From positions 12,402,001 through 12,466,000 of the forward strand of contig CM075990.1 of the NCBI GenBank assembly GCA_038087875.1: a DNA stretch of 64,000 bases, written 5' to 3'. Below the pieces are notes generated by a model that had not been told where the DNA came from, did not search any database, and saw nothing but the letters and a program-made list of their open reading frames with translations. How positions within the stretch are numbered: position 1 is the first letter of the stretch; every line of letters starts with the position of its first letter. The translations under genes and the position numbers were made by a program. The DNA is from Malacoraja senta. Lineage: Eukaryota. This document shows positions 23,781 through 47,400 of this stretch, piece by piece.

Positions 23781-24720
23781 GTCTATGCTAACCATCGATC
23801 ACATGTGCACACTAGTTCTGTGTTATCCCACATTCTATCCAATCCCTGCATACTTGGGGCCAATTAACCTACATGCCCACATGTCTTTGGGATGTGGGAG
23901 GAAACCGGAGCACCTGGAGAAAACCCACGAGGTCACAGGGAGAAAGTGCAAACTCCACACAGACCGTATATGCTTAAACAATTCAGGTAGACACATCGTA
24001 CATTCTGACAGCGATTTTGCTTCTACCACTCTATCGCAGGCACTGCATTCCAGGTCCCCCCTACTAGACCGTTGGGTCTGTTTCCCCAACACGCGGTTGC
24101 GGGTGGGGAGGTGGGGGGGGCTACTTACTTACTTACTTACTAAAGTTACTTACTTACTCGATCCACAAATATCCTCCTCAGACCCTTTCTGAAGCATTTA
24201 CCTCTTATACAAGATCTATGTCTGTCTAGAGTGGGGTTTCATATTTCCCGGGTCATTCTTGCCAGGAGAGGTTGATCCCACTGCGTTAGTGTGCTGTGCT
24301 GAGACAGGCAGGAACACCACAGAAAATAAATAAACCTTATCCTTCTGCCAACAAAGTGAAATACATATGGGTACAATGATTTACAAATTAAAATGCAGGG
24401 TAAACGTGTAACAGAAGCAGGAAAATGGGATACAAGCTAGAGCGAAAATGAAAGATGTTAAATCATTGATTTTACTGCTTGATTATGTGTATAATGATGA
24501 AACTGACTCTCAAAACGCTGGGCAACCTGATACCAGCAGCATCAGTGAAACAGCTGAAATATTCTTGCCCTGGAGAGAACATTCTTGGTGTAATAAATAA
24601 TGAAAGTGTAGGAAGCTAACAAAGGCCGACAGAACAACTGGTGTAAGTCTGTGACAGGCAAAAACAGGAGGCATCAGCAGGAGAGAGCAAGTCGGAGATC
24701 GAATTAGAGGATGACAGAGC

Positions 24721-24782
<62 letters not shown>

Positions 24783-25606
24783 TGACAGTGTCAGAGAATG
24801 AATTGGGACTGGTTGCTGATGGGTTCGGAGGAGAGCAGAAGGGTGGCCAAACGACAATATTAGAGCATGCATTAGCACAATGAAAGAAAGAGCCAGACAG
24901 TATTAGTGCAAAGAGAGAGATGGTACCGGAATATGAATTTAGAACAGTCCTGGATCCAGCTCACATTGCTGAGCGGACACAAGTCGGTATCAAGTAAATA
25001 ATATTGTTCGGTCTGGCGGATCACAAGCTGGCTGTAATGGGTGCAATTTTGTGTGTTTTGGGTGTTTACGTGAGTCTCTGTTATATCTGTCAGCTCGGTG
25101 CTGTCAGAAGCAGCAGGAACCCAGTACTTATTCCTGTTTGCGCCTCTTGTACATTTTCCAGTAAGCTGTCCTCGACCATTTTGAATATGATTTAAATGCC
25201 TTCTCACAAGTGCATCCAGCCAGTGTCTGAAGAAGGGTCTCGACCCGAAATGTCACCCATTCTTTCTATCCAGAGATACTGCCTGTTCCGCTGAGTTACT
25301 CCAGCATTTTGTGTCTATCTTCGGTGTAAACCAGCACCTGTCATTCATTCCTACACAGTAATTTTATGTGCTGCTCTTGGTACTTGGTGAGAACTCGGTG
25401 GGCCAAAGAGTTCCATGCTGTATCTCTAATCCAAACTGGCCAAGGTTTCTTCACCTGCATTCCAACAGAGCCTTGTTTTGAATTGTTGTTATAACAGCAG
25501 GAGGCTGGGTTACGGTTCCAGAGTGTTGAAGCCATGTAAACGATTTGATGAGTTCTGGAGGGTTTTTCAGCCTCGAGATGCAAACCGAGGTTGATTGCCC
25601 TTTGAC

Positions 25607-25820
25607 CAAGGGTTCCCAACCTGGGGTACATTTACCCCCAGTGGGGTAAATTTGTTGATTCTGGATTTGTACATATTTTTTCTCATTGACTGACTGTGTT
25701 TGGTTCTGGTATACCAGGTATCTGTTCATCATTAGTTGGTCATAAATAAGTGAAAATACCTTGTTATGTGCTATTAAAGTTGCCAGGGGTAAATGGGACG
25801 AAAAGGGTTGAGAACCCTTG
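25607..25820. mobile_element. hAT (Charlie-like) MITE, same family as 23547-23780 (duplicate at 38580-38793)
   Basis: Same TIRs and near-identical interior. Confidence 0.78.
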
Positions 25821-26538
25821 TCTAGACTGAGATGCAAGATTGAGAGGGTGGGCTGCTGGAATGGTGGAGAGGTTTAAGCTGACTTCTCATTTTTTTAGAA
25901 TAGATAGACACAAAAAGCTGGAGTAACTCAGCGGGTCAGACAGCATCTCTGGAGAAAAGGATTAGGTGATTATGTGATTATTCCTTTTCTCCAGAGATGC
26001 TGTCTGACATGCTGAGTTACTCCAGCTTTTTGTGTCTATCTTTGATTTAAACCGGCATCTGCCGTTCCTTCCGACACACTTCTCATTTGGAGCTACAGTG
26101 CGAAAACAGGCCCTTCGCTCCACCGAGTCCACACCAGCCAGTGATCATCGTGTGTGTGTAAAACACTAACACTATCCTACACACACTAGGGACAATATAC
26201 ATTTACACCAAGCCAATTAACATGCAACCCTGCACGTCTTTGGTGTGTGGGAGCAAACCGAAGATCTCGGAGAAAACCCACGCAGGTCACGGGGAGAACG
26301 TACAAACTCCGTACAGACAGTGCCCGTAGTCAGGATTGAACCCGGGTCTCTGACGCTGTAAGGCAGCAACTCTACTGCTGTACCACCCTGGGGGCACGTG
26401 TTCTGGGGATGCAGACATGTTCTTCCTCTTCCTCTCCTCTTGTCTCCCTTTTCTGAAGATGTTGGTATTAGTATTGTCAAGAGTATTTTATTGTCATATG
26501 TACCGATAACAGAGTAATGAAATTCTGACTTGAAGCAG

Positions 26539-26596
26539 CAGCACAACAGGTGTGTCAGCACAACAGGTGTGTCAGCACAACAGGTGTGTCAGCACA
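26539..26596. repeat. 17-bp tandem repeat CAGCACAACAGGTGTGT x3.4 (duplicate near 39512-39569)
   Basis: Direct observation, inside a LINE-tail fragment. Confidence 0.9.
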
Positions 26597-29309
26597 GTAC
26601 TCAATTGATAATACAATAAGCAAAAAATAAAATCAGTGAATAAAAATACAATATAGTGCAACTCAGGCAGTTAGTTCAGTATTTAGTTAGTGTTCATAGT
26701 GTTCAACAGCCTGATGGTTGCTGAGAAGATGCTCTTCACTGGTGTTCAATTAGTGGGTGTGGATGTTTGGAGGCAAAGGGCCTGTTTCATGGAGTCACAG
26801 AGTGATACAGTGTGGAAACAGGCCCTTCGGCCCAACTTGCCCACACCGGCCAACATGTCCCAACTACACCAGTCCCACCTGCCTGCGCTTGGTCCATAAT
26901 CCTCCAAAACCTGTCCTATCCATGTACCTGTCTAACTGTTCCTTAAATGTTGGGATAGTCCCTGCCTCAACTACCTCCTCTGGCAGCTTGTTCCATACAC
27001 CCACCACCCTTTTGTGTGAAAAAAGCTACCCATCAGATTCTTATTAAATCTTTTCCCCTTCACATTGAGCCCTTTGGTCCTCGATTCCCCTACTCTGGGC
27101 AAGACAGTCTGTATTCTGTGCCCAGTGACTCCTCATCTGTTTCCTCATGACATGAGCTTTGTTTAAGTGTAGTCTGACTCTGTGGATCATCCTGTGCAAA
27201 CTAGTGACTGATTCCGTGGGATACCCTACAGCACGCTCTGATTTGGGTGAAGTTTTCAGCAGCCAATGCACCATATAAAAGCTGCACGAGATAGCCCAAA
27301 CCTCAGCTGCAGACGTGCCCTTATTCAAGCCAGTGGTTTAAATATAACTTGGAACTGTGAAACCTGTCATCGCACAAGTAAAAGGGCTAAACCCCTTCTG
27401 GCAAATAAAAAGATTTTCCGGCGCATTCGATTTTTGAAAGGAAATAACAATTTGGAGAGAGAGAGAAAATGATAGGTTAGCAGCAGAGTGCAGGTGAGAT
27501 CGGCGTGTAGAATGGAGCATCGGCTTGAATCCGAGTGGAAATGGGGGCTCGAGCAAAGCTGGCAATTGTGTGTGTGTGAGCGGGGAGAGAGAGGCCTGAC
27601 AACTTCTGATGGCACTGTGCACTTCCGACCACTCCGTGCAAACCACTTTAAAGCTTTTAAGGAAGGATATCCAAGCAGTTCCTATGGAGCAGGGCAATTT
27701 CTTTGTGAGTTAATCGCTATTTGCAAACCCACATCCACTGATTTATTTTTGGTAAGTATATAGAGGTCAAAAAACATATCTGTACATCACCTGTGCCCAT
27801 TGCCTGATTATCTCTCCATTCACTTTCTTTTCTAGAGAGTGAAATGTTGACTTGTGTGCATGTAATGAAAGAGCGCCATCTACAGGTTCACAAAGAACCA
27901 CCAGCCAACCCAAAATTATTACAATCTGTCCACCAATTCGTCCTTTTCAATTTAGTTTTCGTTTTTTTTATAAGGTACAGCATGGAAACAGGCCCGTCAA
28001 CCCATCAAGTCCACACCGGCCATTGATCACCCGATCACAGTCGTTCTGTTTTCCCACTCGGTTCCACCACTCCCTACAAGCTGGAGGGGTATGGGCCAAA
28101 CGTATGCAGGTGGGACTAGTGTAGATTGGTCGGTGTGGGCAAGTTGGGCCGATAAGCTTACTGGGCCGATTAACCTTCAAACTGGCACGTCTTTGGGACG
28201 TGGCGGGAAACCAGAGCACCCAGAGGAAACCCACGTGGTCACAGGGAAATGCAAGCAGGCAAACTCCACACAGACAGGACCCGAGGTCAGGATCAAACAC
28301 GGTTTTCTGGTGCTATGAGGCAGCAGCTCTAACAGCTGTGCCATTGTGTCGTAGAGTCATTGAACGGGGAAACTGGCCCTTCGGCCCAACTTGCCCACAC
28401 CGACCAATCTACACTAGTCCCACCTGCATACGTTTGGCCCATACCCCTCCAAATCTGTCCTATCCATGTGCCTGTCTAATTGTTTCTTAAATGTTGCAAA
28501 AGCCCCTGCCTCAACCACCTCAAGCTTCAAGTGTCGGAGAGAAGCAGATGTGACCATTCAGCCCATTGACCCTTTTCCATCATTCATTGAGATCAAGCCC
28601 AACTCCAGATGCCAACCCTTTCCCCATATTCCTTACTGTCTTGACAAATGTTGTTCGGTCTTATCTTTGAAAATAATCAATTGCCATTTGTGAAGGTGGA
28701 TTCCAAAACCTCCGTGTTTCTTGAACTCACTCCGATTTTTCAATGTTGACCTTCACTGCCCAGCTTGTGAAAATGCTCTCTGTTCATCTAGCTTATTAGC
28801 TCTTGAAAAATGCAGTCAAATCACCCAATAACCAAAATCCAAGAGGATAATCCCAGGTTAAGTCTGTGCACTGGAGAAAGGACTCTGATAAAAAGCTGCA
28901 CGATATAGGTGGAATTCAATCCTCCTCTGAAATCCATTCCTGCAATGCATTTGAGCTGAAGGGCAAGAAAGTTTTTTTTTAAAACACATTCACACATGCT
29001 ACTGATTGGTGTGCAAATGTGTGTATGTGTAGCCACACAGTGGGACAGGCGTATGCATGAATTCGAAGGATGGTGTGTGCAAAATGTATGGAATAAGCAA
29101 ACTAAACAAGGGCTTCTCCCTGGTGCTCAGTAATAATATTTAAGGTCAGGCATTCCAAAAAATAAATGCACTTTCCTTTTGAAGTTTATTAGGTCTAAAA
29201 ACACCCCTGGGTGAGTGTACTGGCAACTGTTTATGTTTTATGTTTTTGACGACGAGTTTTTAGAGCAGATTCAAGGCAGGGAAAAAGCATTATAATAATC
29301 ACGGCCTTA

Positions 29310-29993
29310 TAAGACTGATACCCAAAGCAGAATGGATTATCTTCGGTATAACAGAAGATGGTCCAGAACTAAATGTGTTTCAAAAGAAACTAATGGACTA
29401 TGGGTTAATAACTGGAAAAAAGCTAATTCTAAAATTTTGGAAGAAGGCTCCAATACCAACTATAAATATGTGGATTTCAAATATGTTTGAAACATTACAC
29501 CTAGAAGAGATAAGACTCCTCCTAGCAGGTAAACCAGATCATTTCCACCTGACGTGGTCTGCATTTATAGAATTATTACAAACATAAGGTGCAAAAGTAC
29601 TTAAAAAAAAAAAAAAATTGAGGTCAGGTAAGGGGGGATGATAGTTGAAGAGTTGGTATGTCCCATTTGCGTAATGCTCATAAAAATATTTGTTTCTCTC
29701 TTTTTCCTCTTTCTCTCTTTCTTTTTTTCCTAGGGTCTATTTCTTAACTCTTTTTCTTTTGTTTTAATTTTGCTCTTATAGGGTCTTTGTCCTTTTTTGT
29801 TGTCACATTTCCTACACTTCCACTTTTTCCTTCACTTTCTTCTTTCTTTCAATCTTTTCCTTTTCTAGTGTAAAAAATAAATGGAGTACATTAATTGTAA
29901 GAAGATATAAATGACAAGTACTAATGTATGTGGTTGTAATGTAATGTACTTCTAATAAAATACAAATTAAAAAAAAAAAAAATAATAAAAAAA
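29310..29993 (+). mobile_element. 5'-truncated L1-clade LINE (duplicate at 42283-42966)
   Basis: ORF2 C-terminus ..KFWKKAPIPTINMWISNMFETLHLEE..TWSAF, T-rich 3'UTR, poly(A); 13-bp TSD AATCACGGCCTTA (29297-29309, 29994-30006). Confidence 0.9.
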
Positions 29994-31394
29994 AATCACG
30001 GCCTTACTATTGTACTCAAACGAATCCTATTTATTCTCCTCATCGTTGCCATCAACTGAACCAACCTTTCCTCAGGCCAGATTCCACCAGCCATCGGCTA
30101 GCAATGGGCAATTTGCCTCCAAACCTGCCAACCCACTTCTCTTTGAGTGTGGGAGGAAACCATCATAGTCACAGCGGAAATGTCCAAATTCCGCGCAGAA
30201 GTGAATCGGGTTTCATTTATATTCCATGACTTTACCGCACCTTATTTTTCCTTATTCATCAAACCATCATCTGCAGTATGACTGATTGTAATAAAAACAA
30301 CTTGACTGATTGTAAAAAATAAACACCTGAGGACGTGCAGAGGTCCTGAAAGAAGGGAAATGTTTTTTCAATTTTTTTTCCCCGATGACTCATGGCCGAT
30401 AAAAAACAAACAAGTTAAAGTAGTTGGAATCTGGAATTCACGGCCCGTATGGTTCTCCATAGGGGAACTGGAAAATAAATGGTGAGGAAAACTCTTCAAG
30501 CCAACAGAGAAGATGCTGGAGGACTGATCTAGTGCATCGCTCTAGTGGAGAACTAGTATCGTCACAATGGGCCGAATGGACTCATTTTGTGGTGTAATCA
30601 TCTCATGATTCTAAAAGCAGATTTCTTAGATGACGGGCTTATATGTGTCATGTTTGCCCATGAAACAATTGCATTGACTTGCGCTTGTAATCCATGGCTT
30701 TCATCATGAACAAACAAATGCAGTACATTACAGCTGCCAGATGATGGTGGCCTAAGATTCTTTGACAGGGAATCACAAACTACGAGTATGTCTATGAATT
30801 CCCACGACTATTTCGATGCCCTCCTTACAAGTAAAATGTTGCAATTTCTTTCATCCCGACCATTTTTTTACTCGTGGACATTTTTTATCGGGCTCGAAAA
30901 AACGTCCCGACTTACCTGATGCCCCGAGTACCTACGGCTGGCGTAACGAGCCGCTACGATATATCTACGGACTCCTACGGACCCGTTACGAACATTCTGC
31001 GAGTTTGAATCAAGGGGAAAACTCGGGAGAATTCGTGAATAACCCGTGAAAGTGGGACAGGCCCTTTAGAGTTGTTTTTGACAGGAGGGGCGGCACGGTG
31101 GCGCAACGGTAGAGTTGCCATCTTACAGCGCTTTACAGTGCCGGAGACCCGGGTTCGATCCTGACCACGGGTGCTGTCTGTATGGAGTTTGTTCGTTCTT
31201 CCGTGGGTTTTCTCTGTTGTTTTTGACAGGGCTGAAGCTTGCAAATGCAAATTCTTTTGTTCTTGTGGATTGCAGCTGATTAGAGTTTCTGCATGTGTGA
31301 AAACCTGGCTTTGAAGCACGTCCGAGCAGCTAGAAGCTGCCTCCTGTTGTTGCAGGTGTTTTTGCTGAATCTGTCTTTACTCTTGTTTTAATAG

Positions 31395-31455
31395 GTGGAA
31401 GCTACTGATGCAGATGAAGGAGATAATGGGAAGATTTGGTACAGAATCCTCTCAG
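31395..31455 (+). CDS. CDH23: Cadherin-23 internal exon (61 nt), copy 1; VEATDADEGDNGKIWYRILS(G)
   Basis: Acceptor ttttaatag| and donor |gtaacg, phase 0 to 1. Cadherin ATDAD-G motif; matches recalled mammalian CDH23 LKATDADEGEFGRVWYRILHG. Confidence 0.93.
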
Positions 31456-32017
31456 GTAACGTTAAGCTGCTCCTCCACCATTTGCCTGACCTGGCATGAA
31501 GCGTTAGAATCTAATTTGAGGGTCTGTTTTTGCTGGAAGCAGATGTTTTCCACAGAGTTTGGCCATGTGGATTCACAGGCTAGACAGAAGGGTCACATCA
31601 GTTTAACTAGCATCAATATCAGAATCTCTTTCAGGTGTTCTTACATTGTCAGCCACGGCTCAGCAGATTCCACTTTCAGGGAGTCTGAAGGTTGTGACTT
31701 CAAGACCCTCTCTAGTAGGTGTCCTGCCTAATCTAGACTGTCTGGGAAACAGCTGCATGGTATCGTTTAGTTCAGAGATACAGCGCGGAAACAGGCCCTT
31801 CAGCCCACCAAGTCCACGTCGGCCAGCGATCGATCCCCAAACACTAACACTATCCTACACACACTGGGGATAATTTACAATTTTACCAAATTAGCTTACG
31901 TTTGTATGCCTTTGAAGTTTGGGAGGAAACCGGAGCACCAAGAGAAATCCCCACACAGCTCACGGGGAGAACGTACAAACTCTGTACAGGATCGAACCCG
32001 GGTCTCTGGCGCTGTAA

Positions 32018-33997
32018 AAGCCCTGTCTCACGGTGCAAGTTGACCCACGAGGTACCCCGAGCGAAAGACTCGTGGTTGTGCACGAGATTCCAAGTGTATG
32101 CTCAAGAGTTTAACCGAGTTCCCACGGGTATGACTCAAGTTTGCCGTTAACTGTCATTTCTGCGATGTTCCAAGTTCGTCTCCCGAGTTAACAAGTTCCT
32201 TTCCCGAGTTACCCTTGAGCCAACCTTCAATGAAGGTCTGTTTTAATAAGCAACATCTCCATCCTGCGGCTTTGAAGGCTGCATCTATTGATGTGACCTA
32301 CAAAGGGAAAATGCGCACCGTCCAGTGCCAGGGCAGTTATACTGATGATTTGTTTGAAACACACATCACGTAGTTAGAAGACCAGCAGGCGGAGGTTTGC
32401 TATATTTTAATTGAATTTACTGCCAGGTCTACACACTGCGGGGAGGCTGAAGATGAAATCTTTGAATGTGCATGGATGCGCACATCAGATTGTTGGGAGA
32501 CGGAGCTCAGGGTTCGCCTCCTGAGCTGCTTTGGTGCCCAGGCGTGAGTTGAGGTGGAGGGAGGTTGGGGGGTCAGGTTAAACTCACCCATTTGACAGAG
32601 GCAGAGGATTACGAGGATCCAGCGAGACTCGGACTGCATGGAGAGCCGAGACTGCCCCGCTGGTGGCCAACTTCCCCCTGTCCTCCGTTGCCGCTCCCAG
32701 CCGGCCGGCAGGAGCTATGCATGGAGCCCGCCACCGGAGTCGTGTCTGATTGCCTGGGCAGCCTGAGGCAGATGCGCCCTGCCCGGGGAGAGCCCGCGGA
32801 GAGACTGTGGGGGGAGTACCTCACTCTGACTGTGATAGGGAGAGACAGAGGCACACACACACACACACACACAGTGTGGAGTTCCTCTGACTGACTAACT
32901 GTGTGTGGGTGTGGGGGGTGGGACAGAGAGAGAGACACACACACACAGGCAGCGTGGAGTACCTTTAACTGTGTGTGGGAGAGAGAGACAGAGGCAGACA
33001 CACACACACAACGGGCAGTGTGTACCTCAGTCTGTGTGTGTGTGAAGGGGGGAGAGAGAGAGACAGAGACAGTGTGGACCTCTGACTGTATGAAGGAGAG
33101 AGGGGGAGAGAGGGAGAGAGAGAGGCACAGAGGCAGTGTGGTGTACTTCGGCGTGACTGTGGGGGAGAGAGAAAGAGCGCACAGGACCTCGGTCTATCTG
33201 TGTGTGTGGGAGGGAAGAGAGACTAAGCAGAATACATCGGTCCTATTGTGTGCGCGGGGAGAAAGAGAGAGGTGGGGGGGAGAAAGAGAGAGGTGGGGGG
33301 GGGAGAAAGAGAAATGGGGAGAGACGTGTATATACACACACAAAGCAGAGTTTACTGTGTATGTGGGAGACACAGATGGACTTACCTCGGTCTTACTGTG
33401 TGTGGGAGAGGGGGAGAAAGAGACGTACACTCACAGGGGCAGAGTCTCTCAGCCTGTGTGAGAGGGAGGGAGAGAGAGAGAGAGACACACACACACAAGG
33501 TGGATGTTAAATCTCACCTGCCTGTTTCAGTGACAGGCAGCCGCCGCCAGTGAAGGAAGACACCCCCATCTGTCTCCCCCTCCTCTCCCTCCACTCTCCA
33601 CCCTCCCTCCTCCCACCCCCCCCCCCCCCCCCAATTTGGAAATGTCATCCCATCACCCATTCCTTCTCTCCAGAGATGCTGCCTGCCCGCTGAGTTAAAG
33701 AGTTCCCACGGTAGACTCACGAGTCACTAAGGTAAACGCACGGGCCACTACGTTCTTACAACGTGTTTAAATGTTTCACATTTTAACCTCAAGAGTACAT
33801 TTTACTCGTGGAAAAGTTTAAACATGTTTGAATTTTTCCAAGAGTTAACAAGTGTCACGGGTACCGCCAAGAGTCGCTAAGTTGCGTCCACGGGTTCCGA
33901 CGTTCCCGCTACGTTAATCGTACGTGATTACCACGACTTAAATTTGTTTTAAGCTCGGGGTACCTCGTGGGTCAACTCGCACCATGAGACAGGGGTT
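32018..33997. mobile_element. PIF/Harbinger-like TIR element nested in a SINE and carrying a ~1.48 kb foreign insert (duplicate at 44992-46968)
   Basis: 45-bp TIRs (32018-32062, 33953-33997; 3 mismatches) and TAA TSD (32015-32017, 33998-34000). The host SINE is split at CTGGCGCTGTAA|GGCAGTAACTCTACC. Confidence 0.85.
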
Positions 33998-35439
33998 TAA
34001 GGCAGTAACTCTACCGTGCCACCCTTAGCAAGCCCCTATTCCGTCTATATGTCAGTTGTAAGTGTTCAGAGATACCGCGTAAATGTAGCCCAGAGCTTAT
34101 CTCTCTCCTGGGGGAGCTCAGTGTCAGATCTTTGTCTATGTTACAGCTTTAAAGAGCTGTCTGACATCTTACTACATTAAAGATTGCATTAATACAACTT
34201 GTCGGAGTCTTTAAAAGGTTTGGAAGGCCCCTCTGTTAAATGCAAACTTGCAAGCACTGGATGGCACACGATGGAATTCACTTTCATGAGCAGAGAAACA
34301 GTAATAAAACTGTCTCATCTGATTCCCGAGACGTGTTTTCCTGCAGGCAGTGTTTTGTATTTTGATCCTGCCGCTACTTAACCATGTTCCCTTTGATTTT
34401 TTAACGTCTATCTAAATAGTTGCTGGTGACTTTCTTTACTCACCCAGCTTCCTGCAAACTATTAACAAGCAGTTAAACGCTGACCTATGACAATTGAACA
34501 TTCTTGACTAACCTTACAAGGTGAAAAAGCCTTCATTATACACTTGCTTCCAAAACCTAAGCCTTCACATTTATTTTACATTGAACGGCATCTGCCACTA
34601 TTTGCCTATCCTGCAGCCTATTTTTGTCTTGTCTTTGTTTCCTTCCCCAGAGATTTATCAGACATTTCATCAGTTGAGACTACCATTTTTTATTGTGTAG
34701 GAAGGAACTGCAGGTGCTGGTTTACACCGAAGATAGACACACAATGCTGGAGTACCTCAGCGGGACAGGCAGCACCTCTGGGGAGAAGGAATGGGTGACT
34801 TGTCGGGTCAGTCTGAAGAAGGGTCTCAACCCGAAACATCACCCATTCCTTCTCTCCAGAGATGCTGCCTGTCCCACTGAGTTACTCCAACATTTTGTGC
34901 CTATCTTCATTTTTTAAATTCTTGGATAAGAGATCTGTAGAGCGATTAAACCCATGAAATAGTCATCGGTATCATCCTTCGGCTAATTACTATAGTCCGA
35001 CAAGACACAGCAGAACACAGTCTCCTGGCCTGCTGAGCTGCTCAGAATTGTAGCATCAACAGTCTCTTGTGTGTCTGTTTTACAAGTTGCAAGGTAACTT
35101 TAGAAGTAAATTGGAACTTTCCGCCAACTATAGAAAGAAAAAGAAAAAAAAGTATGATATGATGCTATTTCTGCCATTGCCATGAGTTAATGCTCTTTTT
35201 CCAAGAAATAGATAAAGGCTTTGTTTATCAGTAACATAGGCTTCCGGGAACTCTAATGTTGTAATGCAATTGTAGACCTGATACAGGCTGCATCCTGTAC
35301 CATGGAATATCCCACTGCTTCCTCGGATGTCAACAAGAAAATAAATTATTGCCCTTAACAGTATGAGGGATAGATAGCCAAGGATACATATTTTTAGCTT
35401 TGAAACTAATGGCGTGATGTGTGTGGTTTTGTTTTTCAG

Positions 35440-35588
35440 GAAATTCCATTGATAACTTCCGGATGGACCAAGGCACCGGACTCATCTCCAGAGGAACCCA
35501 CCCTCTGGACCGAGAGGGCAGCACCACCCATGTGCTGGAGGTGGAGGCCTACAACAGTGACTTTGGGAGGATGCGGAGCTCAGTCAGA
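35440..35588 (+). CDS. CDH23: Cadherin-23 internal exon (149 nt), copy 1; (G)NSIDNFRMDQGTGLISRGTHPLDREGSTTHVLEVEAYNSDFGRMRSSVR
   Basis: gtttttcag| ... |gtaaga, phase 1 to 0, in frame with the previous exon. Has the LDRE motif and the CDH23-typical VEAYNxDxGxMRSSVR. Confidence 0.95.
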
Positions 35589-36428
35589 GTAAGAGCTCAA
35601 TGCTTGCTCATAAGTATCTTTTGTTTTAGTTTAGTTTAGAGATACAGCACGGAAACAGGTGTATGGAACGAGCTGCCGGAGGAAGTAGTTGAGGCAGGTA
35701 CGGTTGCAATGTTTAAGAAACATTAGACAGGTACATGGATAGGACAGGTTTGGAGGGATATGGACCAAACACAGGCAGATGGGACTAGTGTAGTTGGGAC
35801 ATGTTGGTCGGTGTGGGCAAGTTGGGCCGAAGGGCCTGTTTGCACACTCTATGTTATATATAAGCATCTGATCATGACTGCCGCAGTCAAATCTGGATCA
35901 TGTCACCATTGACAATGCAGGACTCCATCAGTCATTTTAAATTTCAGTTTTCAAATTTCCAGAGCAGGATTTGAACCCAAAATCTATCGGGGAGTCAAAA
36001 GTGTTACCCGCAGCTGTAGGAGCACCCACTCCTGCCTCACTCGGATACTGCATTAGGTTTGCCATTCTCGTTAATATTCTCCCATCCTCTTCAAGGCAGT
36101 AAACTATTAAATGGCACACAAAGAGCTGGAGTAACTCAGTGGGTCAGGCAGCCTTTGTGGAAGACATGGACAGGTGACGTTTCAGGTCAGGACCTTTCTT
36201 CAGTCTGAAACATCACCTGTCTATATCCTCCACAGATGCTGCCAGATGTGATACTTTCCTCCAGCACTTTGTGTTTTGCACAAGACTCCAGTGTCTGCAG
36301 TTCCTTGTTTCTCCAACTGTTAAGTTATGCTGTGGGTGTGGCTTCAAAGGGATAACCGAATGCACGATAATCCTGTCATCTGCTTCTCTTGTCTTTCCAT
36401 GCCCTTGTCTTGGCCTTCCCTTGCCCAG

Positions 36429-36564
36429 GTCATCGTGTATGTGGAGGATGTGAATGATGAGACGCCAGTCTTTACCCAGCTGCAGTACAACCGGCTCGGC
36501 CTGCGAGAAACAGCAGGGATCGGCACGTCGGTCATTGTGGTCCGGGCGAGCGATGGGGATACAG
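36429..36564 (+). CDS. CDH23: Cadherin-23 internal exon (136 nt), copy 1; VIVYVEDVNDETPVFTQLQYNRLGLRETAGIGTSVIVVRASDGDT(G)
   Basis: cttgcccag| ... |gtaacg, phase 0 to 1. DVNDE linker; RLGLRETAGIGTSVIVV is identical to recalled CDH23. Confidence 0.95.
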
Positions 36565-36725
36565 GTAACGCTCTCCTCCCAAGCCAGCATTGGCCTTTCC
36601 TTCGCTCCATAGATGCTGCTGCACCGCTGAGTTCTCCAGCACTTTGATCAATCTATACCTGTGATTTTCTTGCATTGCTAGCATAAATGGGCTAAGAGTG
36701 GAGCCATTCCCACATCTGCTAACTG

Positions 36726-36925
36726 NNNNNNNNNNNNNNNNNNNNNNNNNNNNNNNNNNNNNNNNNNNNNNNNNNNNNNNNNNNNNNNNNNNNNNNNNNN
36801 NNNNNNNNNNNNNNNNNNNNNNNNNNNNNNNNNNNNNNNNNNNNNNNNNNNNNNNNNNNNNNNNNNNNNNNNNNNNNNNNNNNNNNNNNNNNNNNNNNNN
36901 NNNNNNNNNNNNNNNNNNNNNNNNN
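36726..36925. other. Assembly gap (exactly 200 N, placeholder size)
   Basis: Run of N counted from 36726 to 36925. Confidence 0.99.
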
Positions 36926-37712
36926 AAAGTGCAAACTCCACACAGACCGTATATGCTTAAACAATTCAGGTAGACACATCGTACATTCTGACAGCGATTT
37001 TGCTTCTACCACTCTATCGCAGGCACTGCATTCCAGGTCCCCCCTACTAGACCGTTGGGTCTGTTTCCCCAACACGCGGTTGCGGGTGGGGGGGTGGGGG
37101 GGGCTACTTACTTACTTACTTACTAAAGTTACTTACTTACTCGATCCACAAATATCCTCCTCAGACCCTTTCTGAAGCATTTACCTCTTATACAAGATCT
37201 ATGTCTGTCTAGAGTGGGGTTTCATATTTCCCGGGTCATTCTTGCCAGGAGAGGTTGATCCCACTGCGTTAGTGTGCTGTGCTGAGACAGGCAGGAACAC
37301 CACAGAAAATAAATAAACCTTATCCTTCTGCCAACAAAGTGAAATACATATGGGTACAATGATTTACAAATTAAAATGCAGGGTAAACGTGTAACAGAAG
37401 CAGGAAAATGGGATACAAGCTAGAGCGAAAATGAAAGATGTTAAATCATTGATTTTACTGCTTGATTATGTGTATAATGATGAAACTGACTCTCAAAACG
37501 CTGGGCAACCTGATACCAGCAGCATCAGTGAAACAGCTGAAATATTCTTGCCCTGGAGAGAACATTCTTGGTGTAATAAATAATGAAAGTGTAGGAAGCC
37601 AACAAAGGCCGACAGAACAACTGGTGTAAGTCTGTGACAGGCAAAAACAGGAGGCATCAGCAGGAGAGAGCAAGTCGGAGATCGAATTAGAGGATGACAG
37701 AGCTGTGGAGAG

Positions 37713-37755
<43 letters not shown>

Positions 37756-40700
37756 TGACAGTGTCAGAGAATGAATTGGGACTGGCTGCTGATGGGTTCG
37801 GAGGAGAGCAGAAGGGTGGCCAAACGACAATATTAGAGCATGCATTAGCACAATGAAAGAAAGAGCCAGACAGTATTAGTGCAAAGAGAGAGATGGTACC
37901 GGAATATGAATTTAGAACAGTCCTGGATCCAGCTCACATTGCTGAGCGGACACAAGTCGGTATCAAGTAAATAATATTGTTCGGTCTGGCGGATCACAAG
38001 CTGGCTGTAATGGGTGCAATTTTGTGTGTTTTGGGTGTTTACGTGAGTCTCTGTTATATCTGTCAGCTCGGTGCTGTCAGAAGCAGCAGGAACCCAGTAC
38101 TTATTCCTGTTTGCGCCTCTTGTACATTTTCCAGTAAGCTGTCCTCGACCATTTTGAATATGATTTAAATGCCTTCTCACAAGTGCATCCAGCCAGTGTC
38201 TGAAGAAGGGTCTCGACCCGAAATGTCACCCATTCTTTCTATCCAGAGATACTGCCTGTTCCGCTGAGTTACTCCAGCATTTTGTGTCTATCTTCGGTGT
38301 AAACCAGCACCTGTCATTCATTCCTACACAGTAATTTTATGTGCTGCTCTTGGTACTTGGTGAGAACTCGGTGGGCCAAAGAGTTCCATGCTGTATCTCT
38401 AATCCAAACTGGCCAAGGTTTCTTCACCTGCATTCCAACAGAGCCTTGTTTTGAATTGTTGTTATAACAGCAGGAGGCTGGGTTACGGTTCCAGAGTGTT
38501 GAAGCCATGTAAACGATTTGATGAGTTCTGGAGGGTTTTTCAGCCTCGAGATGCAAACCGAGGTTGATTGCCCTTTGACCAAGGGTTCCCAACCTGGGGT
38601 ACATTTACCCCCAGTGGGGTAAATTTGTTGATTCTGGATTTGTACATATTTTTTCTCATTGACTGACTGTGTTTGGTTCTGGTATACCAGGTATCTGTTC
38701 ATCATTAGTTGGTCATAAATAAGTGAAAATACCTTGTTATGTGCTATTAAAGTTGCCAGGGGTAAATGGGACGAAAAGGGTTGAGAACCCTTGTCTAGAC
38801 TGAGATGCAAGATTGAGAGGGTGGGCTGCTGGAATGGTGGAGAGGTTTAAGCTGACTTCTCATTTTTTTAGAATAGATAGACACAAAAAGCTGGAGTAAC
38901 TCAGCGGGTCAGACAGCATCTCTGGAGAAAAGGATTAGGTGATTATGTGATTATTCCTTTTCTCCAGAGATGCTGTCTGACATGCTGAGTTACTCCAGCT
39001 TTTTGTGTCTATCTTTGATTTAAACCGGCATCTGCCGTTCCTTCCGACACACTTCTCATTTGGAGCTACAGTGCGAAAACAGGCCCTTCGCTCCACCGAG
39101 TCCACACCAGCCAGTGATCATCGTGTGTGTGTAAAACACTAACACTATCCTACACACACTAGGGACAATATACATTTACACCAAGCCAATTAACATGCAA
39201 CCCTGCACGTCTTTGGTGTGTGGGAGCAAACCGAAGATCTCGGAGAAAACCCACGCAGGTCACGGGGAGAACGTACAAACTCCGTACAGACAGTGCCCGT
39301 AGTCAGGATTGAACCCGGGTCTCTGACGCTGTAAGGCAGCAACTCTACTGCTGTACCACCCTGGGGGCACGTGTTCTGGGGATGCAGACATGTTCTTCCT
39401 CTTCCTCTCCTCTTGTCTCCCTTTTCTGAAGATGTTGGTATTAGTATTGTCAAGAGTATTTTATTGTCATATGTACCGATAACAGAGTAATGAAATTCTG
39501 ACTTGAAGCAGCAGCACAACAGGTGTGTCAGCACAACAGGTGTGTCAGCACAACAGGTGTGTCAGCACAGTACTCAATTGATAATACAATAAGCAAAAAT
39601 AAAATCAGTGAATAAAAATACAATATAGTGCAACTCAGGCAGTTAGTTCAGTATTTAGTTAGTGTTCATAGTGTTCAACAGCCTGATGGTTGCTGAGAAG
39701 ATGCTCTTCACTGGTGTTCAATTAGTGGGTGTGGATGTTTGGAGGCAAAGGGCCTGTTTCATGGAGTCACAGAGTGATACAGTGTGGAAACAGGCCCTTC
39801 GGCCCAACTTGCCCACACCGGCCAACATGTCCCAACTACACCAGTCCCACCTGCCTGCGCTTGGTCCATAATCCTCCAAACCTGTCCTATCCATGTACCT
39901 GTCTAACTGTTCCTTAAATGTTGGGATAGTCCCTGCCTCAACTACCTCCTCTGGCAGCTTGTTCCATACACCCACCACCCTTTTGTGTGAAAAAAGCTAC
40001 CCATCAGATTCTTATTAAATCTTTTCCCCTTCACATTGAGCCCTTTGGTCCTCGATTCCCCTACTCTGGGCAAGACAGTCTGTATTCTGTGCCCAGTGAC
40101 TCCTCATCTGTTTCCTCATGACATGAGCTTTGTTTAAGTGTAGTCTGACTCTGTGGATCATCCTGTGCAAACTAGTGACTGATTCCGTGGGATACCCTAC
40201 AGCACGCTCTGATTTGGGTGAAGTTTTCAGCAGCCAATGCACCATATAAAAGCTGCACGAGATAGCCCAAACCTCAGCTGCAGACGTGCCCTTATTCAAG
40301 CCAGTGGTTTAAATATAACTTGGAACTGTGAAACCTGTCATCGCACAAGTAAAAGGGCTAAACCCCTTCTGGCAAATAAAAAGATTTTCCGGCGCATTCG
40401 ATTTTTGAAAGGAAATAACAATTTGGAGAGAGAGAGAAAATGATAGGTTAGCAGCAGAGTGCGGGTGAGATCGGCGTGTAGAATGGAGCATCGGCTTGAA
40501 TCCGAGTGGAAATGGGGGCTCGAGCAAAGCTGGCAATTGTGTGTGTGTGAGCGGGGAGAGAGAGGCCTGACAACTTCTGATGGCACTGTGCACTTCCGAC
40601 CACTCCGTGCAAACCACTTTAAAGCTTTTAAGGAAGGATATCCAAGCAGTTCCTATGGAGCAGGGCAATTTCTTTGTGAGTTAATCGCTATTTGCAAACC

Positions 40701-43700
40701 CACATCCACTGATTTATTTTTGGTAAGTATATAGAGGTCAAAAAAACATATCTGTACATCACCTGTGCCCATTGCCTGATTATCTCTCCATTCACTTTCT
40801 TTTCTAGAGAGTGAAATGTTGACTTGTGTGCATGTAATGAAAGAGCGCCATCTACAGGTTCACAAAGAACCACCAGCCAACCCAAATTATTACAATCTGT
40901 CCACCAATTCGTCCTTTTCAATTTAGTTTTCGTTTTTTTTATAAGGTACAGCATGGAAACAGGCCCGTCAACCCATCAAGTCCACACCGGCCATTGATCA
41001 CCCGATCACAGTCGTTCTGTTTTCCCACTCGGTTCCACCACTCCCTACAAGCTGGAGGGGTATGGGCCAAACGTATGCAGGTGGGACTAGTGTAGATTGG
41101 TCGGTGTGGGCAAGTTGGGCCGATAAGCTTACTGGGCCGATTAACCTTCAAACTGGCACGTCTTTGGGACGTGGCGGGAAACCAGAGCACCCAGAGGAAA
41201 CCCACGTGGTCACAGGGAAATGCAAGCAGGCAAACTCCACACAGACAGGACCCGAGGTCAGGATCAAACACGGTTTTCTGGTGCTATGAGGCAGCAGCTC
41301 TAACAGCTGTGCCATTGTGTCGTAGAGTCATTGAACGGGGAAACTGGCCCTTCGGCCCAACTTGCCCACACCGACCAATCTACACTAGTCCCACCTGCAT
41401 ACGTTTGGCCCATACCCCTCCAAATCTGTCCTATCCATGTGCCTGTCTAATTGTTTCTTAAATGTTGCAAAAGCCCCTGCCTCAACCACCTCAAGCTTCA
41501 AGTGTCGGAGAGAAGCAGATGTGACCATTCAGCCCATTGACCCTTTTCCATCATTCATTGAGATCAAGCCCAACTCCAGATGCCAACCCTTTCCCCATAT
41601 TCCTTACTGTCTTGACAAATGTTGTTCGGTCTTATCTTTGAAAATAATCAATTGCCATTTGTGAAGGTGGATTCCAAAACCCTCCGTGTTTCTTGAACTC
41701 ACTCCGATTTTTCAATGTTGACCTTCACTGCCCAGCTTGTGAAAATGCTCTCTGTTCATCTAGCTTATTAGCTCTTGAAAAATGCAGTCAAATCACCCAA
41801 TAACCAAAATCCAAGAGGATAATCCCAGGTTAAGTCTGTGCACTGGAGAAAGGACTCTGATAAAAAGCTGCACGATATAGGTGGAATTCAATCCTCCTCT
41901 GAAATCCATTCCTGCAATGCATTTGAGCTGAAGGGCAAGAAAGTTTTTTTTTTAAAACACATTCACACATGCTACTGATTGGTGTGCAAATGTGTGTATG
42001 TGTAGCCACACAGTGGGACAGGCGTATGCATGAATTCGAAGGATGGTGTGTGCAAAATGTATGGAATAAGCAAACTAAACAAGGGCTTCTCCCTGGTGCT
42101 CAGTAATAATATTTAAGGTCAGGCATTCCAAAAAATAAATGCACTTTCCTTTTGAAGTTTATTAGGTCTAAAAACACCCCTGGGTGAGTGTACTGGCAAC
42201 TGTTTATGTTTTATGTTTTTGACGACGAGTTTTTAGAGCAGATTCAAGGCAGGGAAAAAGCATTATAATAATCACGGCCTTATAAGACTGATACCCAAAG
42301 CAGAATGGATTATCTTCGGTATAACGGAAGATGGTCCAGAACTAAATGTGTTTCAAAAGAAACTAATGGACTATGCGTTAATAACTGGAAAAAAGCTAAT
42401 TCTAAAATTTTGGAAGAAGGCTCCAATACCAACTATAAATATGTGGATTTCAAATATGTTTGAAACATTACACCTAGAAGAGATAAGACTCCTCCTAGCA
42501 GGTAAACCAGATCATTTCCACCTGACGTGGTCTGCATTTATAGAATTATTACAAACATAAGGTGCAAAAGTACTTAAAAAAAAAAAAAAATTGAGGTCAG
42601 GTAAGGGGGGATGATAGTTGAAGAGTTGGTATGTCCCATTTGCGTAATGCTCATAAAAATATTTGTTTCTCTCTTTTTCCTCTTTCTCTCTTTCTTTTTT
42701 TCCTAGGGTCTATTTCTTAACTCTTTTTCTTTTGTTTTTAATTTTGCTCTTATAGGGTCTTTGTCCTTTTTTGTTGTCACATTTCCTACACTTCCACTTT
42801 TTCCTTCACTTTCTTCTTTCTTTCAATCTTTTCCTTTTCTAGTGTAAAAAATAAATGGAGTACATTAATTGTAAGAAGATATAAATGACAAGTACTAATG
42901 TATGTGGTTGTAATGTAATGTACTTCTAATAAATACAAATTTTAAAAAAAATAAAAAATAAAAAAAAATCACGGCCTTACTATTGTACTCAAACGAATCC
43001 TATTTATTCTCCTCATCGTTGCCATCAACTGAACCAACCTTTCCTCAGGCCAGATTCCACCAGCCATCGGCTAGCAATGGGCAATTTGCCTCCAAACCTG
43101 CCAACCCACTTCTCTTTGAGTGTGGGAGGAAACCATCATAGTCACAGCGGAAATGTCCAAATTCCGCGCAGAAGTGAATCGGGTTTCATTTATATTCCAT
43201 GACTTTACCGCACCTTATTTTTCCTTATTCATCAAACCATCATCTGCAGTATGACTGATTGTAATAAAAACAACTTGACTGATTGTAAAAAATAAACACC
43301 TGAGGACGTGCAGAGGTCCTGAAAGAAGGGAAATGTTTTTTCAATTTTTTTCCCCCGATGACTCATGGCCGATAAAAAACAAACAAGTTAAAGTAGTTGG
43401 AATCTGGAATTCACGGCCCGTATGGTTCTCCATAGGGGAACTGGAAAATAAATGGTGAGGAAAACTCTTCAAGCCAACAGAGAAGATGCTGGAGGACTGA
43501 TCTAGTGCATCGCTCTAGTGGAGAACTAGTATCGTCACAATGGGCCGAATGGACTCATTTTGTGGTGTAATCATCTCATGATTCTAAAAGCAGATTTCTT
43601 AGATGACGGGCTTATATGTGTCATGTTTGCCCATGAAACAATTGCATTGACTTGCGCTTGTAATCCATGGCTTTCATCATGAACAAACAAATGCAGTACA

Positions 43701-44428: not shown

Positions 44429-47400
44429 GTAACGTTAAGCTGCTCCTCCACCATTTGCCTGACCTGGCATGAAGCGTTAGAATCTAATTTGAGGGTCTGT
44501 TTTTGCTGGAAGCAGATGTTTTCCACAGAGTTTGGCCATGTGGATTCACAGGCTAGACAGAAGGGTCACATCAGTTTAACTAGCATCAATATCAGAATCT
44601 CTTTCAGGTGTTCTTACATTGTCAGCCACGGCTCAGCCAGATTCCACTTTCAGGGAGTCTGAAGGTTGTGACTTCAAGACCCTCTCTAGTAGGTGTCCTG
44701 CCTAATCTAGACTGTCTGGGAAACAGCTGCACGGTATCGTTTAGTTCAGAGATACAGCGCGGAAACAGGCCCTTCAGCCCACCAAGTCCACGTCGGCCAG
44801 CGATCGATCCCCAAACACTAACACTATCCTACACACACTGGGGATAATTTACAATTTTACCAAATTAGCTTACGTTTGTATGCCTTTGAAGTTTGGGAGG
44901 AAACCGGAGCACCAAGAGAAATCCCCACACAGCTCACGGGGAGAACGTACAAACTCTGTACAGGATCGAACCCGGGTCTCTGGCGCTGTAAAAGCCCTGT
45001 CTCACGGTGCAAGTTGACCCACGAGGTACCCCGAGCGAAAGACTCGTGGTTGTGCACGAGATTCCAAGTGTATGCTCAAGAGTTTAACCGAGTTCCCACG
45101 GGTATGACTCAAGTTTGCCGTTAACTGTCATTTCTGCGATGTTCCAAGTTCGTCTCCCGAGTTAACAAGTTCCTTTCCCGAGTTACCCTTGAGCCAACCT
45201 TCAATGAAGGTCTGTTTTAATAAGCAACATCTCCATCCTGCGGCTTTGAAGGCTGCATCTATTGATGTGACCTACAAAGGGAAAATGCGCACCGTCCAGT
45301 GCCAGGGCAGTTATACTGATGATTTGTTTGAAACACACATCACGTAGTTAGAAGACCAGCAGGCGGAGGTTTGCTATATTTTAATTGAATTTACTGCCAG
45401 GTCTACACACTGCGGGGAGGCTGAAGATGAAATCTTTGAATGTGCACGGATGCGCACATCAGATTGTTGGGAGACGGAGCTCAGGGTTCGCCTCCTGAGC
45501 TGCTTTGGTGCCCAGGCGTGAGTTGAGGTGGAGGGAGGTTGGGGGGTCAGGTTAAACTCACCCATTTGACAGAGGCAGAGGATTACGAGGATCCAGCGAG
45601 ACTCGGACTGCATGGAGAGCCGAGACTGCCCCGCTGGTGGCCAACTTCCCCTGTCCTCCGTTGCCGCTCCCAGCCGGCCGGCAGGAGCTATGCATGGAGC
45701 CCGCCACCGGAGTCGTGTCTGATTGCCTGGGCAGCCTGAGGCAGATGCGCCCTGCCCGGGGAGAGCCCGCGGAGAGACTGCGGGGGGAGTACCTCACTCT
45801 GACTGTGATAGGGAGAGACAGAGGCACACACACACACACACACACAGTGTGGAGTTCCTCTGACTGACTAACTGTGTGTGGGTGTGGGGGTGGGACAGAG
45901 AGAGAGACACACACACACAGGCAGCGTGGAGTACCTTTAACTGTGTGTGGGAGAGAGAGACAGAGGCAGACACACACACACAACGGGCAGTGTGTACCTC
46001 AGTCTGTGTGTGTGTGAAGGGGGAGAGAGAGAGACAGAGACAGTGTGGACCTCTGACTGTGTATGAAGGAGAGAGGGGGAGAGAGGGAGAGAGAGAGGCA
46101 CAGAGGCAGTGTGGTGTACTTCGGCGTGACTGTGGGGGAGAGAGAAAGAGCGCACAGGACCTCGGTCTATCTGTGTGTGTGGGAGGGAAGAGAGACTAAG
46201 CAGAATACATCGGTCCTATTGTGTGCGCGGGGAGAAAGAGAGAGGTGGGGGGGAGAAAGAGAGAGGTGGGGGGGGAGAAAGAGAAATGGGGAGAGACGTG
46301 TATATACACACACAAAGCAGAGTTTACTGTGTATGTGGGAGACACAGATGGACTTACCTCGGTCTTACTGTGTGTGGGAGAGGGGGAGAAAGAGACGTAC
46401 ACTCACAGGGGCAGAGTCTCTCAGCCTGTGTGAGAGGGAGGGAGAGAGAGAGAGAGACACACACACACAAGGTGGATGTTAAATCTCACCTGCCTGTTTC
46501 AGTGACAGGCAGCCGCCGCCAGTGAAGGAAGACACCCCCATCTGTCTCCCCCTCCTCTCCCTCCACTCTCCACCCTCCCTCCTCCCACCCCCCCCCCCCC
46601 CCCCAATTTGGAAATGTCATCCCATCACCCATTCCTTCTCTCCAGAGATGCTGCCTGCCCGCTGAGTTAAAGAGTTCCCACGGTAGACTCACGAGTCACT
46701 AAGGTAAACGCACGGGCCACTACGTTCTTACAACGTGTTTAAATGTTTCACATTTTAACCTCAAGAGTACATTTTACTCGTGGAAAAGTTTAAACATGTT
46801 TGAATTTTTCCAAGAGTTAACAAGTGTCACGGGTACCGCCAAGAGTCGCTAAGTGCGTCCACGGGTTCCGACGTTCCCGCTACGTTAATCGTACGTGATT
46901 ACCACGACTTAAATTTGTTTTAAGCTCGGGGTACCTCGTGGGTCAACTCGCACCATGAGACAGGGGTTTAAGGCAGTAACTCTACCGTGCCACCCTTAGC
47001 AAGCCCCTATTCCGTCTATATGTCAGTTGTAAGTGTTCAGAGATACCGCGTAAATGTAGCCCAGAGCTTATCTCTCTCCTGGGGGAGCTCAGTGTCAGAT
47101 CTTTGTCTATGTTACAGCTTTAAAGAGCTGTCTGACATCTTACTACATTAAAGATTGCATTAATACAACTTGTCGGAGTCTTTAAAAGGTTTGGAAGGCC
47201 CCTCTGTTAAATGCAAACTTGCAGGCACTGGATGGCACACGATGGAATTCACTTTCATGAGCAGAGAAACAGTAATAAAACTGTCTCATCTGATTCCCGA
47301 GACGTGTTTTCCTGCAGGCAGTGTTTTGTATTTTGATCCTGCTGCTACTTAACCATGTTCCCTTTGATTTTTTAACGTCTATCTAAATAGTTGCTGGTGA

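What the first reader, a model, noticed from the sequence alone, without database searches (positions are those of the whole stretch)
32212..33697. Captured gene-like fragment inside a TIR element, ending in a Penelope-type arm (Pack-element or retro-transduction)
Seen: three-level nesting. A SINE is split by a 45-bp-TIR/TAA-TSD element, which is itself split by a 1.48 kb insert bounded by GAGTTA at both junctions (32206-32211, 33692-33697). The insert is not recognisable TE sequence. On the - strand it has a donor CAG|GTGAGA (33518), an acceptor ctctgtctctccctatcacag| (exon start 32829), a GC-rich UTR-like stretch, and an ATG (32639) giving MQSESRWILVILCLCQM+G|GTGAGT (32588), a phase-1 signal-peptide-like exon. 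The insert's right end is a C-rich tract plus one arm of the palindromic hammerhead-family repeat. Inference: the 5' end of another gene, with its intron retained, was moved here either by transposon capture (Pack-TIR-like) or by Penelope-type retrotransposition of a chimeric RNA. This would explain why no downstream exons exist locally. Caveats: the Kozak context is weak and the MITE interior is rich in GAGTT, so the junction repeat may be microhomology.
Basis: partly seen in the sequence, partly recalled or inferred. Interest (0 to 1): 0.7.

Follow-up and report, generated by a model that had tools for sequence, protein, structure and literature searches.

The report
High-copy transposon carrying gene-like cargo
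The supposed one-off captured gene fragment is the interior of a 2-kb non-coding cut-and-paste transposon present in hundreds to thousands of copies, and that interior may once have been copied from the start of a host gene that was not identified.

Summary
The anatomy is as described: a SINE in a cadherin-23 intron is split by a 1,980-bp element (TAA duplication, TIRs 42/45 identical), with GAGTTA at both ends of a 1.49-kb interior. But the interior is not a unique insert. Contigs of public runs cover it at 76,000-131,000 summed depth against 19-47 in the flanks, and both junctions recur in other copies, in three organisms. The element arrived whole: two nesting levels here, not three. It is a non-autonomous PIF/Harbinger-type subfamily of roughly 10^3 copies; shorter relatives with the same arms are several times commoner. 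Penelope retro-transduction is unlikely: one truncated arm, no hammerhead core, and the right GAGTTA is arm sequence, so microhomology. Host-gene origin stays open. For it: the leader-like exon beats a Markov null (29 of 5,000), and depth arithmetic implies that a 6.3-kb contig of a probable RNA run carries UTR plus exon at one end and leaves near the donor. Against it: no donor or protein homologue was found, and the acceptor is one of 12 in a degenerate array. The second window copy is probably an assembly duplication. Most likely a multicopy Pack-TIR, a known kind, unusual only in copy number.

The parts
31395..31455 (+). Host gene exon upstream (cadherin repeat, cadherin-23), 61 nt
   Evidence: Sequence; cadherin matches; host named from a later exon, 185 bits in one stretch to cadherin-23 chain 5vh2_A
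31765..32017 (.). SINE-like repeat, left part, ending in TAA
   Evidence: Matches many window copies; rejoins the right part on copy 26331-26389
32015..32017 (+). Left target-site duplication TAA
32018..33997 (.). Whole 1,980-bp non-autonomous PIF/Harbinger-type element, the mobile unit
   Evidence: TIRs and TAA; interior and both internal junctions shared with other copies
32018..32062 (+). Left TIR, 45 bp
   Evidence: 42 of 45 identical to right TIR
32018..32211 (+). Left arm shared with shorter family members; 21-bp subterminal repeats; ends in GAGTTA
   Evidence: X1 depth 395,000 in bin 32106-32206, 470,000-725,000 at 32062 and 32114; repeats
32212..33697 (-). Interior ('insert'), high-copy in organism A, patchy in organism B
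   Evidence: X1 depth 76,000-131,000 at eight listed sites 32213-33540, 34,000-47,000 at 33350/33382, 4,200 at 33243
32588..32639 (-). Leader-peptide-like coding stretch, 52 nt, phase-1 donor G|GTGAGT
   Evidence: no homologue found
32640..32804 (-). GC-rich UTR-like stretch with an overlapping upstream ATG; 32639-32730 matches one end of a 6,277-nt contig of a probable RNA run
32805..33517 (-).
33518..33569 (-). Upstream exon-like stretch ending at CAG|GTGAGA; has its own ATG with a non-hydrophobic 17-codon frame
33573..33632 (+). C-rich low-complexity tract
33653..33697 (+). Truncated arm of the palindromic hammerhead-type (Penelope pLTR-like) repeat, no catalytic core, cut at GAGTTA
33698..33997 (+). 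Right arm shared with shorter family members; right TIR 33953-33997
   Evidence: X1 depth 530,000-620,000; 76% like the short element at 17870-18189 over 125 bp
33998..34025 (.). Right TAA duplication and SINE tail
35440..35588 (+). Host gene exon downstream (cadherin repeat)
44992..46968 (.). Second copy of the element inside the 12.7-kb duplicated block; probably the same locus assembled twice

Best explanation
A multicopy Pack-TIR of PIF/Harbinger type. Step 1 (inferred): a roughly 0.5-kb MITE took up 1.5 kb of host DNA by gap repair or template switching; one junction formed at GAGTTA shared by the MITE and a Penelope-type arm that already lay in the copied DNA. That DNA was the 5' region of a gene for a secreted or membrane protein (UTR, leader exon, part of the next intron). 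Step 2 (shown by depth and shared junctions; transposase action inferred): the 2-kb composite kept its TIRs and was moved in trans as a unit, reaching order 10^3 copies in organism A and leaving internally deleted subfamilies in organism B. Step 3 (shown): one whole copy inserted at TAA in a SINE in a cadherin-23 intron, antisense to the host. It is most likely a decaying passenger, not a working gene.
For: Unit mobility: TAA duplication and TIRs. High copy: X1 interior depth 76,000-131,000 versus 19-47 in flanks, about 1,600-6,800 copy equivalents (rough). Left junction shared: a mismatch at 32213, two bases inside the insert, is read through by 27 contigs of summed depth 107,157 in X1 and by contigs in X2, X3, X19. 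Right junction bridged in all four runs (X1 33659-33759, X2 33659-33758, X3 33657-33802 at depth 388, X19 33659-33787). Arms 3-7 times deeper than the interior, so shorter relatives exist. Microhomology: 29 of 31 window arms continue past GAGTTA into the arm consensus; this one stops there; 429 of 964 same-sized window segments hold an arm. Gene origin: null test; X19 record 13 (6,277 nt, depth 43.9) is listed at 32639-32730, and bin means (8.26 and 43.9, expected 31.7 without a second piece) imply that it also covers 32611-32638 and leaves the stretch between about 32553 and 32611, which brackets the donor at 32588.
Against: No donor locus seen. No protein shares three 5-residue words with the leader among proteins of 71-2,000 aa (no control that this lineage's annotated proteins are held). 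No joint at 33518, 32829 or 32588, and no empty 32211-33698 joint, among the 15 of 376 joints shown. X19 is RNA by guess only; its second piece is deduced, not listed, and the split at 32639/32638 means its sequence differs right at the ATG. Weak start context and an overlapping upstream ATG. The upstream donor and acceptor are units of a repeat array. Summed contig depth is not a copy number, as the tool warns.
Confidence: 0.5

Rival explanations
1. Same high-copy composite element, but the interior is non-genic host filler (GC-rich DNA, a minisatellite, a repeat arm), and the leader exon and splice sites are chance motifs.
For: No homologue in any protein search; 12 acceptor-like sites in one array; one other leader-like exon in 51 kb of window; CpG observed/expected only 0.46-0.53 at 32500-32899, like the window mean 0.49.
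Against: Markov null 29 of 5,000 and 1 of 5,000; the long contig that appears to leave near the donor.
Confidence: 0.27
2. The interior is a remnant of the transposon lineage's own sequence (promoter and first exons of an autonomous Harbinger or another element); the short relatives arose from longer forms by deletion at GAGTTA.
For: Family-wide shared junctions and deletion derivatives, such as a 33539-33702 joint in X3; GAGTTA occurs 3 times in 494 bp of arms, so it could mark a deletion as well as an insertion.
Against: No transposase or Myb/SANT match in 9 read-through frames or 6 ORFs of the interior; the cut repeat arm at the junction suggests copied genomic DNA.
Confidence: 0.17
3. One reading: a chimeric RNA carrying the gene 5' end was retro-inserted into the MITE with a 6-bp GAGTTA duplication, either here or in the family founder.
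For: GAGTTA on both sides and a pLTR-like arm at one end; Penelope elements can move intron-containing host DNA (PMC3846280, passages).
Against: [quoted passage not shown]
Confidence: 0.05

Closest known systems
Animal Pack-TIRs (Tan et al. 2021, PMC8277862; sections 7 and 14, passages and supplement look-up read)
   Same: TIR element split by 0.1-5 kb of host-like DNA, microhomology at a breakpoint (67.6% of cases); PIF-Harbinger carriers are listed ('Harbinger' 37 times in Supplementary Data 1, e.g. Xenopus VI_XL).
   Different: They need an identified parental copy, which is missing here. Only four (1.4%) were multicopy, the examples read having three or five copies; here order 10^3. Their elephant shark row has 0 Pack-TIRs and 0 PIF-Harbinger.
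Non-autonomous PIF/Harbinger elements (PMC9179366 introduction; PMC8903248 passages)
   Same: TIRs of 25-50 bp, 3-bp duplication, TAA/TTA target.
   Different: No transposase or Myb-like frame; no autonomous partner identified, so the superfamily call rests on ends and target only.
HelibatN3 of bats (Thomas et al. 2014, PMC4224331, passages)
   Same: Closest in behaviour: promoter, 5' UTR, first exon and part of intron 1 of NUBPL amplified to about a thousand copies; gene 5' ends reach the highest copy numbers.
   Different: A Helitron without TIRs or target duplication, and with a known donor.
Penelope-mediated host gene transduction (PMC3846280, passages) and minimal hammerheads in pLTRs (PMC4209133, first quarter of text)
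   Same: The arm belongs to a repeat whose other copies carry CTGANGA-helix-GAAA cores.
   Different: Single truncated arm, no core, no pLTR framing, no independent duplication.

Membership tests
PIF/Harbinger non-autonomous element | TIRs of 25-50 bp | tested here: met
   45 bp, 42 identical
PIF/Harbinger non-autonomous element | 3-bp TAA/TTA target duplication | tested here: met
   TAA/TAA by SINE reconstruction; relatives at 8046-8435 TAA/TAA and 17870-18189 TAA/TTA
PIF/Harbinger non-autonomous element | Dispersed multicopy family | tested here: met
   Depth and many variant contigs in four runs; dispersal inferred, positions not seen
PIF/Harbinger non-autonomous element | Autonomous partner with the same TIRs, encoding DDE transposase and Myb-like protein | not testable with these tools
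   No genome held
Pack-TIR | Internal 0.1-5 kb sequence between two parts of the same TIR element | tested here: met
   1,486 bp between arms that are 3-7 times commoner than the interior
Pack-TIR | Unambiguous parental host copy not tied to the TE | tested here: inconclusive
   None in the window; only the indirect X19 record 13 hint; genome search impossible
Pack-TIR | Empty element contiguous across the junction | tested here: inconclusive
   Arms deeper than interior, but no 32211-33698 joint among 15 of 376 shown
Pack-TIR | Microhomology at a breakpoint (common, not required) | tested here: met
   GAGTTA shared by arm consensus and MITE; donor side of the left junction unknown
Penelope retro-transduction | Cargo framed by pLTRs | tested here: not met
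   One 45-bp arm at one end only
Penelope retro-transduction | Hammerhead core in the pLTR | tested here: not met
   No CTGANGA...GAAA in the element on either strand; 6 elsewhere; no Rfam match at gathering score in the window
Penelope retro-transduction | Target duplication independent of the element's own sequence | tested here: not met
   Right GAGTTA is arm consensus
Signal-peptide first coding exon of a host gene | Hydrophobic leader ending at a phase-1 donor | tested here: met
   Best 8-residue hydropathy 3.7, G|GTGAGT; SignalP not available
Signal-peptide first coding exon of a host gene | Homologous protein or spliced transcript | tested here: inconclusive
   No protein; transcript only by depth arithmetic

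The most novel reading that the evidence does not exclude
A cut-and-paste Harbinger derivative in a fish-like vertebrate lineage has spread the 5' UTR, signal-peptide exon and live splice donor of one host gene to thousands of sites, far beyond the few copies of the multicopy animal Pack-TIRs read about here, a TIR counterpart of bat HelibatN3. Copies lying sense within introns or upstream of genes could add secretion leaders or alternative first exons, and the 6.3-kb transcript is the donor mRNA or such a chimera.
Probability: 0.3. Interest if true: 0.62.

Novelty: new member of a known kind. Interest (0 to 1): 0.36.

Why it matters
As a non-autonomous Harbinger family with a composite interior it is ordinary. 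If the donor gene is confirmed, it shows that TIR transposons in vertebrates can amplify a captured gene start to about 10^3 copies. Screens that demand a unique best parental hit (PMC8277862 methods) would tend to miss such families, so gene capture by animal DNA transposons may be undercounted (inference). It also warns that a gene-like insert that looks unique in a 64-kb window can be a genome-wide repeat.

Tried and rejected
Whole-genome donor search: no genome held. No RNA holder listed by the run search; this is no evidence either way. X19 has no cover at 32813-33115 or 33318-33620; a hole proves nothing. Protein searches, all blank: 43-aa query, later shown underpowered, since simulated targets with one substitution passed in 1 of 15 cases; 40-aa two-row profile with simulated power of 15 of 15 at three substitutions, no candidate; plus-strand read-through frame 32212-32544; 30-aa phmmer gave 5 hits, of which the 3 fetched are unrelated repetitive frames; PDB; Pfam, only sub-threshold hits; ESM Atlas. 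None has a positive control for this lineage's proteins. Exact-pattern scans of metagenome, viral and prokaryote contigs: 0 loci. Rfam: 0. Earlier scan notes: none. The copy at 44992-46968 rejected as donor or independent copy: the 12.7-kb block is 99.6% identical across a 200-N gap, and X1's single-copy contigs show first-copy letters at 31500-31791 but second-copy letters at 34253 and 34372. A nested antisense gene in place rejected: the interior sits inside a TAA-flanked element that splits a SINE. Whether organism B has the element at this site: inconclusive (its flank contig stops aligning at 34009). Spy or Kolobok type rejected: the rejoined SINE needs a 3-bp duplication and has no TTAA site (their target rules recalled). 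A recalled likeness of the leader to immune-receptor leaders was not supported by the PDB searches.

Full report
Setting. The window is vertebrate DNA from within a cadherin-23 gene on the + strand: an exon at 50842-51213 matches cadherin-23 chain 5vh2_A with 185 bits in one stretch, and the exons flanking the finding (31395-31455, 35440-35588) encode cadherin repeat pieces. The repeats recall a cartilaginous fish (recalled, not tested). Bases 23943-36601 recur at 36926-49572 at 99.6% identity across a 200-N gap. Run X1 shows one unbranched version with first-copy letters on the left flank and second-copy letters at 34253 and 34372, so this is probably one locus assembled twice, and the second copy of the finding is not independent.

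Observation. The outer anatomy is right. A SINE-like repeat is split at TAA; its halves rejoin on another window copy with TAA counted twice. Between lies a 1,980-bp element, 32018-33997, with 45-bp TIRs (42 identical). Shorter elements with similar TIR starts and TAA/TTA flanks lie at 8046-8435 and 17870-18189. TIRs of 25-50 bp and a 3-bp TAA/TTA duplication are the PIF/Harbinger signature (PMC9179366 introduction; PMC8903248 passages). The donor, acceptor, ATG, peptide, C-rich tract and arm are all at the stated places. The leader-like exon is above chance: 29 of 5,000 order-2 Markov simulations of the insert gave a comparable exon, 1 of 5,000 with an upstream CAG|GTRAG. The test is post hoc, and one other such exon occurs in 51 kb of non-duplicated window. 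The 'intron' 32805-33517 is a degenerate array of roughly 55-70-nt units; 12 acceptor-like sites lie between 33453 and 32825, another at 32804, and the upstream donor opens the first unit. So the 33518-32829 pairing is not singled out by sequence.

The decisive result. I laid contigs of 4 of the 24 listed runs on 31500-34500: X1 and X2 (organism A, one study), X3 (organism B), X19 (organism F, RNA by guess). In X1 the unique flanks have depth 19-47. The interior has 76,000-131,000 at eight listed sites from 32213 to 33540, 34,000-47,000 at 33350 and 33382, and 4,200 at 33243 inside the array. That is about 1,600-6,800 copy equivalents for most of it. Summed contig depth is not a copy number and overlapping contigs inflate it, so I claim only hundreds to thousands. 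The junctions travel with it. A mismatch at 32213, two bases into the insert, is read through by 27 contigs of summed depth 107,157 in X1, which requires alignment to continue into the left arm (inference), and by contigs in the other three runs. The arm-to-MITE junction is bridged in all four runs, at depth 388 in one X3 contig. At 32213, 32446, 32689 and 33540 nearly all depth carries another letter than the window, so this copy has private mutations. The two arms are 3-7 times deeper than the interior (395,000-725,000 left, 530,000-620,000 right), so shorter family members exist. Organism B, whose flanks differ from the window at 13 of 285 and 31 of about 490 sites, has 4,000-fold cover at 33540 but only 20-30-fold at 32681-32689: the family predates the split and has deleted subfamilies. 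Hence the element inserted here as one unit, and nesting at this locus has two levels.

Penelope. The arm belongs to a palindromic repeat whose other copies carry CTGANGA-helix-GAAA cores of the minimal hammerhead type described in Penelope terminal repeats (6 cores; PMC4209133, first quarter read). This arm has no core and starts about where cleavage would fall (inference). Of 31 window arms, 29 run past GAGTTA into the consensus; the two exceptions are this one and one with a one-base slip that does continue. The right GAGTTA is therefore arm sequence: microhomology, not an independent duplication. Arms are so dense that 429 of 964 segments of this size hold one. Documented Penelope transduction has cargo framed by several pLTRs and a true duplication (PMC3846280 passages). 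I reject it for this locus and give it about 5% for the founder.

Is the interior a gene start? No donor could be searched for directly, and none lies in the window. Protein searches were blank. The first was underpowered; the profile search had good simulated power and found no candidate, but I have no control that this lineage's annotated proteins are held. One hint points the other way. X19 record 13 is 6,277 nt long, depth 43.9, listed at 32730-32639 from its letter 19 to 110, with 6 differences. The bin 32712-32812 reads 8.26, exactly its 19 bases. The bin 32611-32711 reads 43.9, where 31.7 is expected from the listed piece alone. So the same contig most likely has a second, unlisted piece covering 32611-32638; being shorter than the listed pieces, it would end between about 32553 and 32611, around the donor at 32588, after which some 6 kb lie elsewhere. 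That is what a spliced donor mRNA would look like. It is deduced, from one contig of a run that is RNA only by guess, and the break at 32639/32638 shows a difference right at the ATG. No splice joint and no empty-element joint is among the 15 of 376 joints shown.

Mechanism. Shown: unit insertion with TAA duplication; high copy number; shared junctions; microhomology at the right junction. Inferred: capture of host DNA into a 0.5-kb MITE by gap repair or template switching, as proposed for animal Pack-TIRs (PMC8277862); mobilisation in trans by a Harbinger transposase and Myb-like partner; gene origin of the cargo. I put capture of a gene 5' end at 0.5, non-genic filler at 0.27, a remnant of the transposon's own sequence at 0.17. 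Here the cargo is antisense to cadherin-23, and 0 of 86 minus-strand ORFs of 62 aa or more tested in 1-32200 match Pfam (4 of 90 microsatellite ORFs left out), so a local product is unlikely.

Comparison and novelty. Harbinger-borne Pack-TIRs are known in vertebrates: the word occurs 37 times in Supplementary Data 1 of PMC8277862, of which I saw two rows, both Xenopus. Only four Pack-TIRs there were multicopy, the examples read with three or five copies, and the screen required a unique best parental hit. The closest behaviour is bat HelibatN3, a Helitron that spread a promoter, UTR, first exon and partial intron to about a thousand copies (PMC4224331 passages). Searches for Pack-TIR, Pack-PIF or Pack-Harbinger, for skate or cartilaginous Harbingers and MITEs and for high-copy capture of first exons listed no description of this family; I saw listings only for most hits, the library lacks most subscription papers, and Dfam and Repbase could not be searched. 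PMC9179366 notes Harbingers absent from elephant shark and other cartilaginous fish untested. Verdict: a real element, misread as a unique nested capture; a new member of a known kind, interesting mainly if the donor is confirmed at this copy number.

Noticed in passing
window 23943-36601 and 36926-49572: 12.7-kb duplication of cadherin-23 exons at 99.6% identity across a 200-N gap; run X1 shows one version mixing letters of both copies, so probably a false duplication.
   Followed up: partly
window 8046-8435, 17870-18189, and a lone right end near 31064: Other short elements with related TIR starts and TAA/TTA flanks; the one at 17870 also sits in a SINE, at a different TAA. Several Harbinger-type MITE families in this genome.
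   Followed up: partly
window 32805-33517, - strand: Array of about a dozen mini-intron-like units separated by 6-19-nt spacers, resembling a microexon series; units are short for vertebrate introns (recalled), so probably a minisatellite.
   Followed up: partly
window 32212-32544, + strand: 111 codons with a single stop, starting at the left junction; no homologue.
   Followed up: yes
window 33518-33569 and 32588-32804, - strand: Splicing the upstream ATG exon to the acceptor at 32804 would give a 90-codon frame open to the 32588 donor, a different frame from the leader; ESM Atlas blank for its second part.
   Followed up: partly
window about 24560-24960, + strand: Broken acidic reading frame interrupted by a GA microsatellite within the cadherin-23 gene region; identity unknown.
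   Followed up: no
whole window: 31 arms of a palindromic repeat in 51 kb, 6 with minimal hammerhead-like cores that Rfam does not report at gathering score.
   Followed up: partly
run X3, joint 33539-33702: A variant in organism B lacks the C-rich tract and the repeat arm but keeps the interior joined to the right arm; derived deletion or ancestral form not settled.
   Followed up: no
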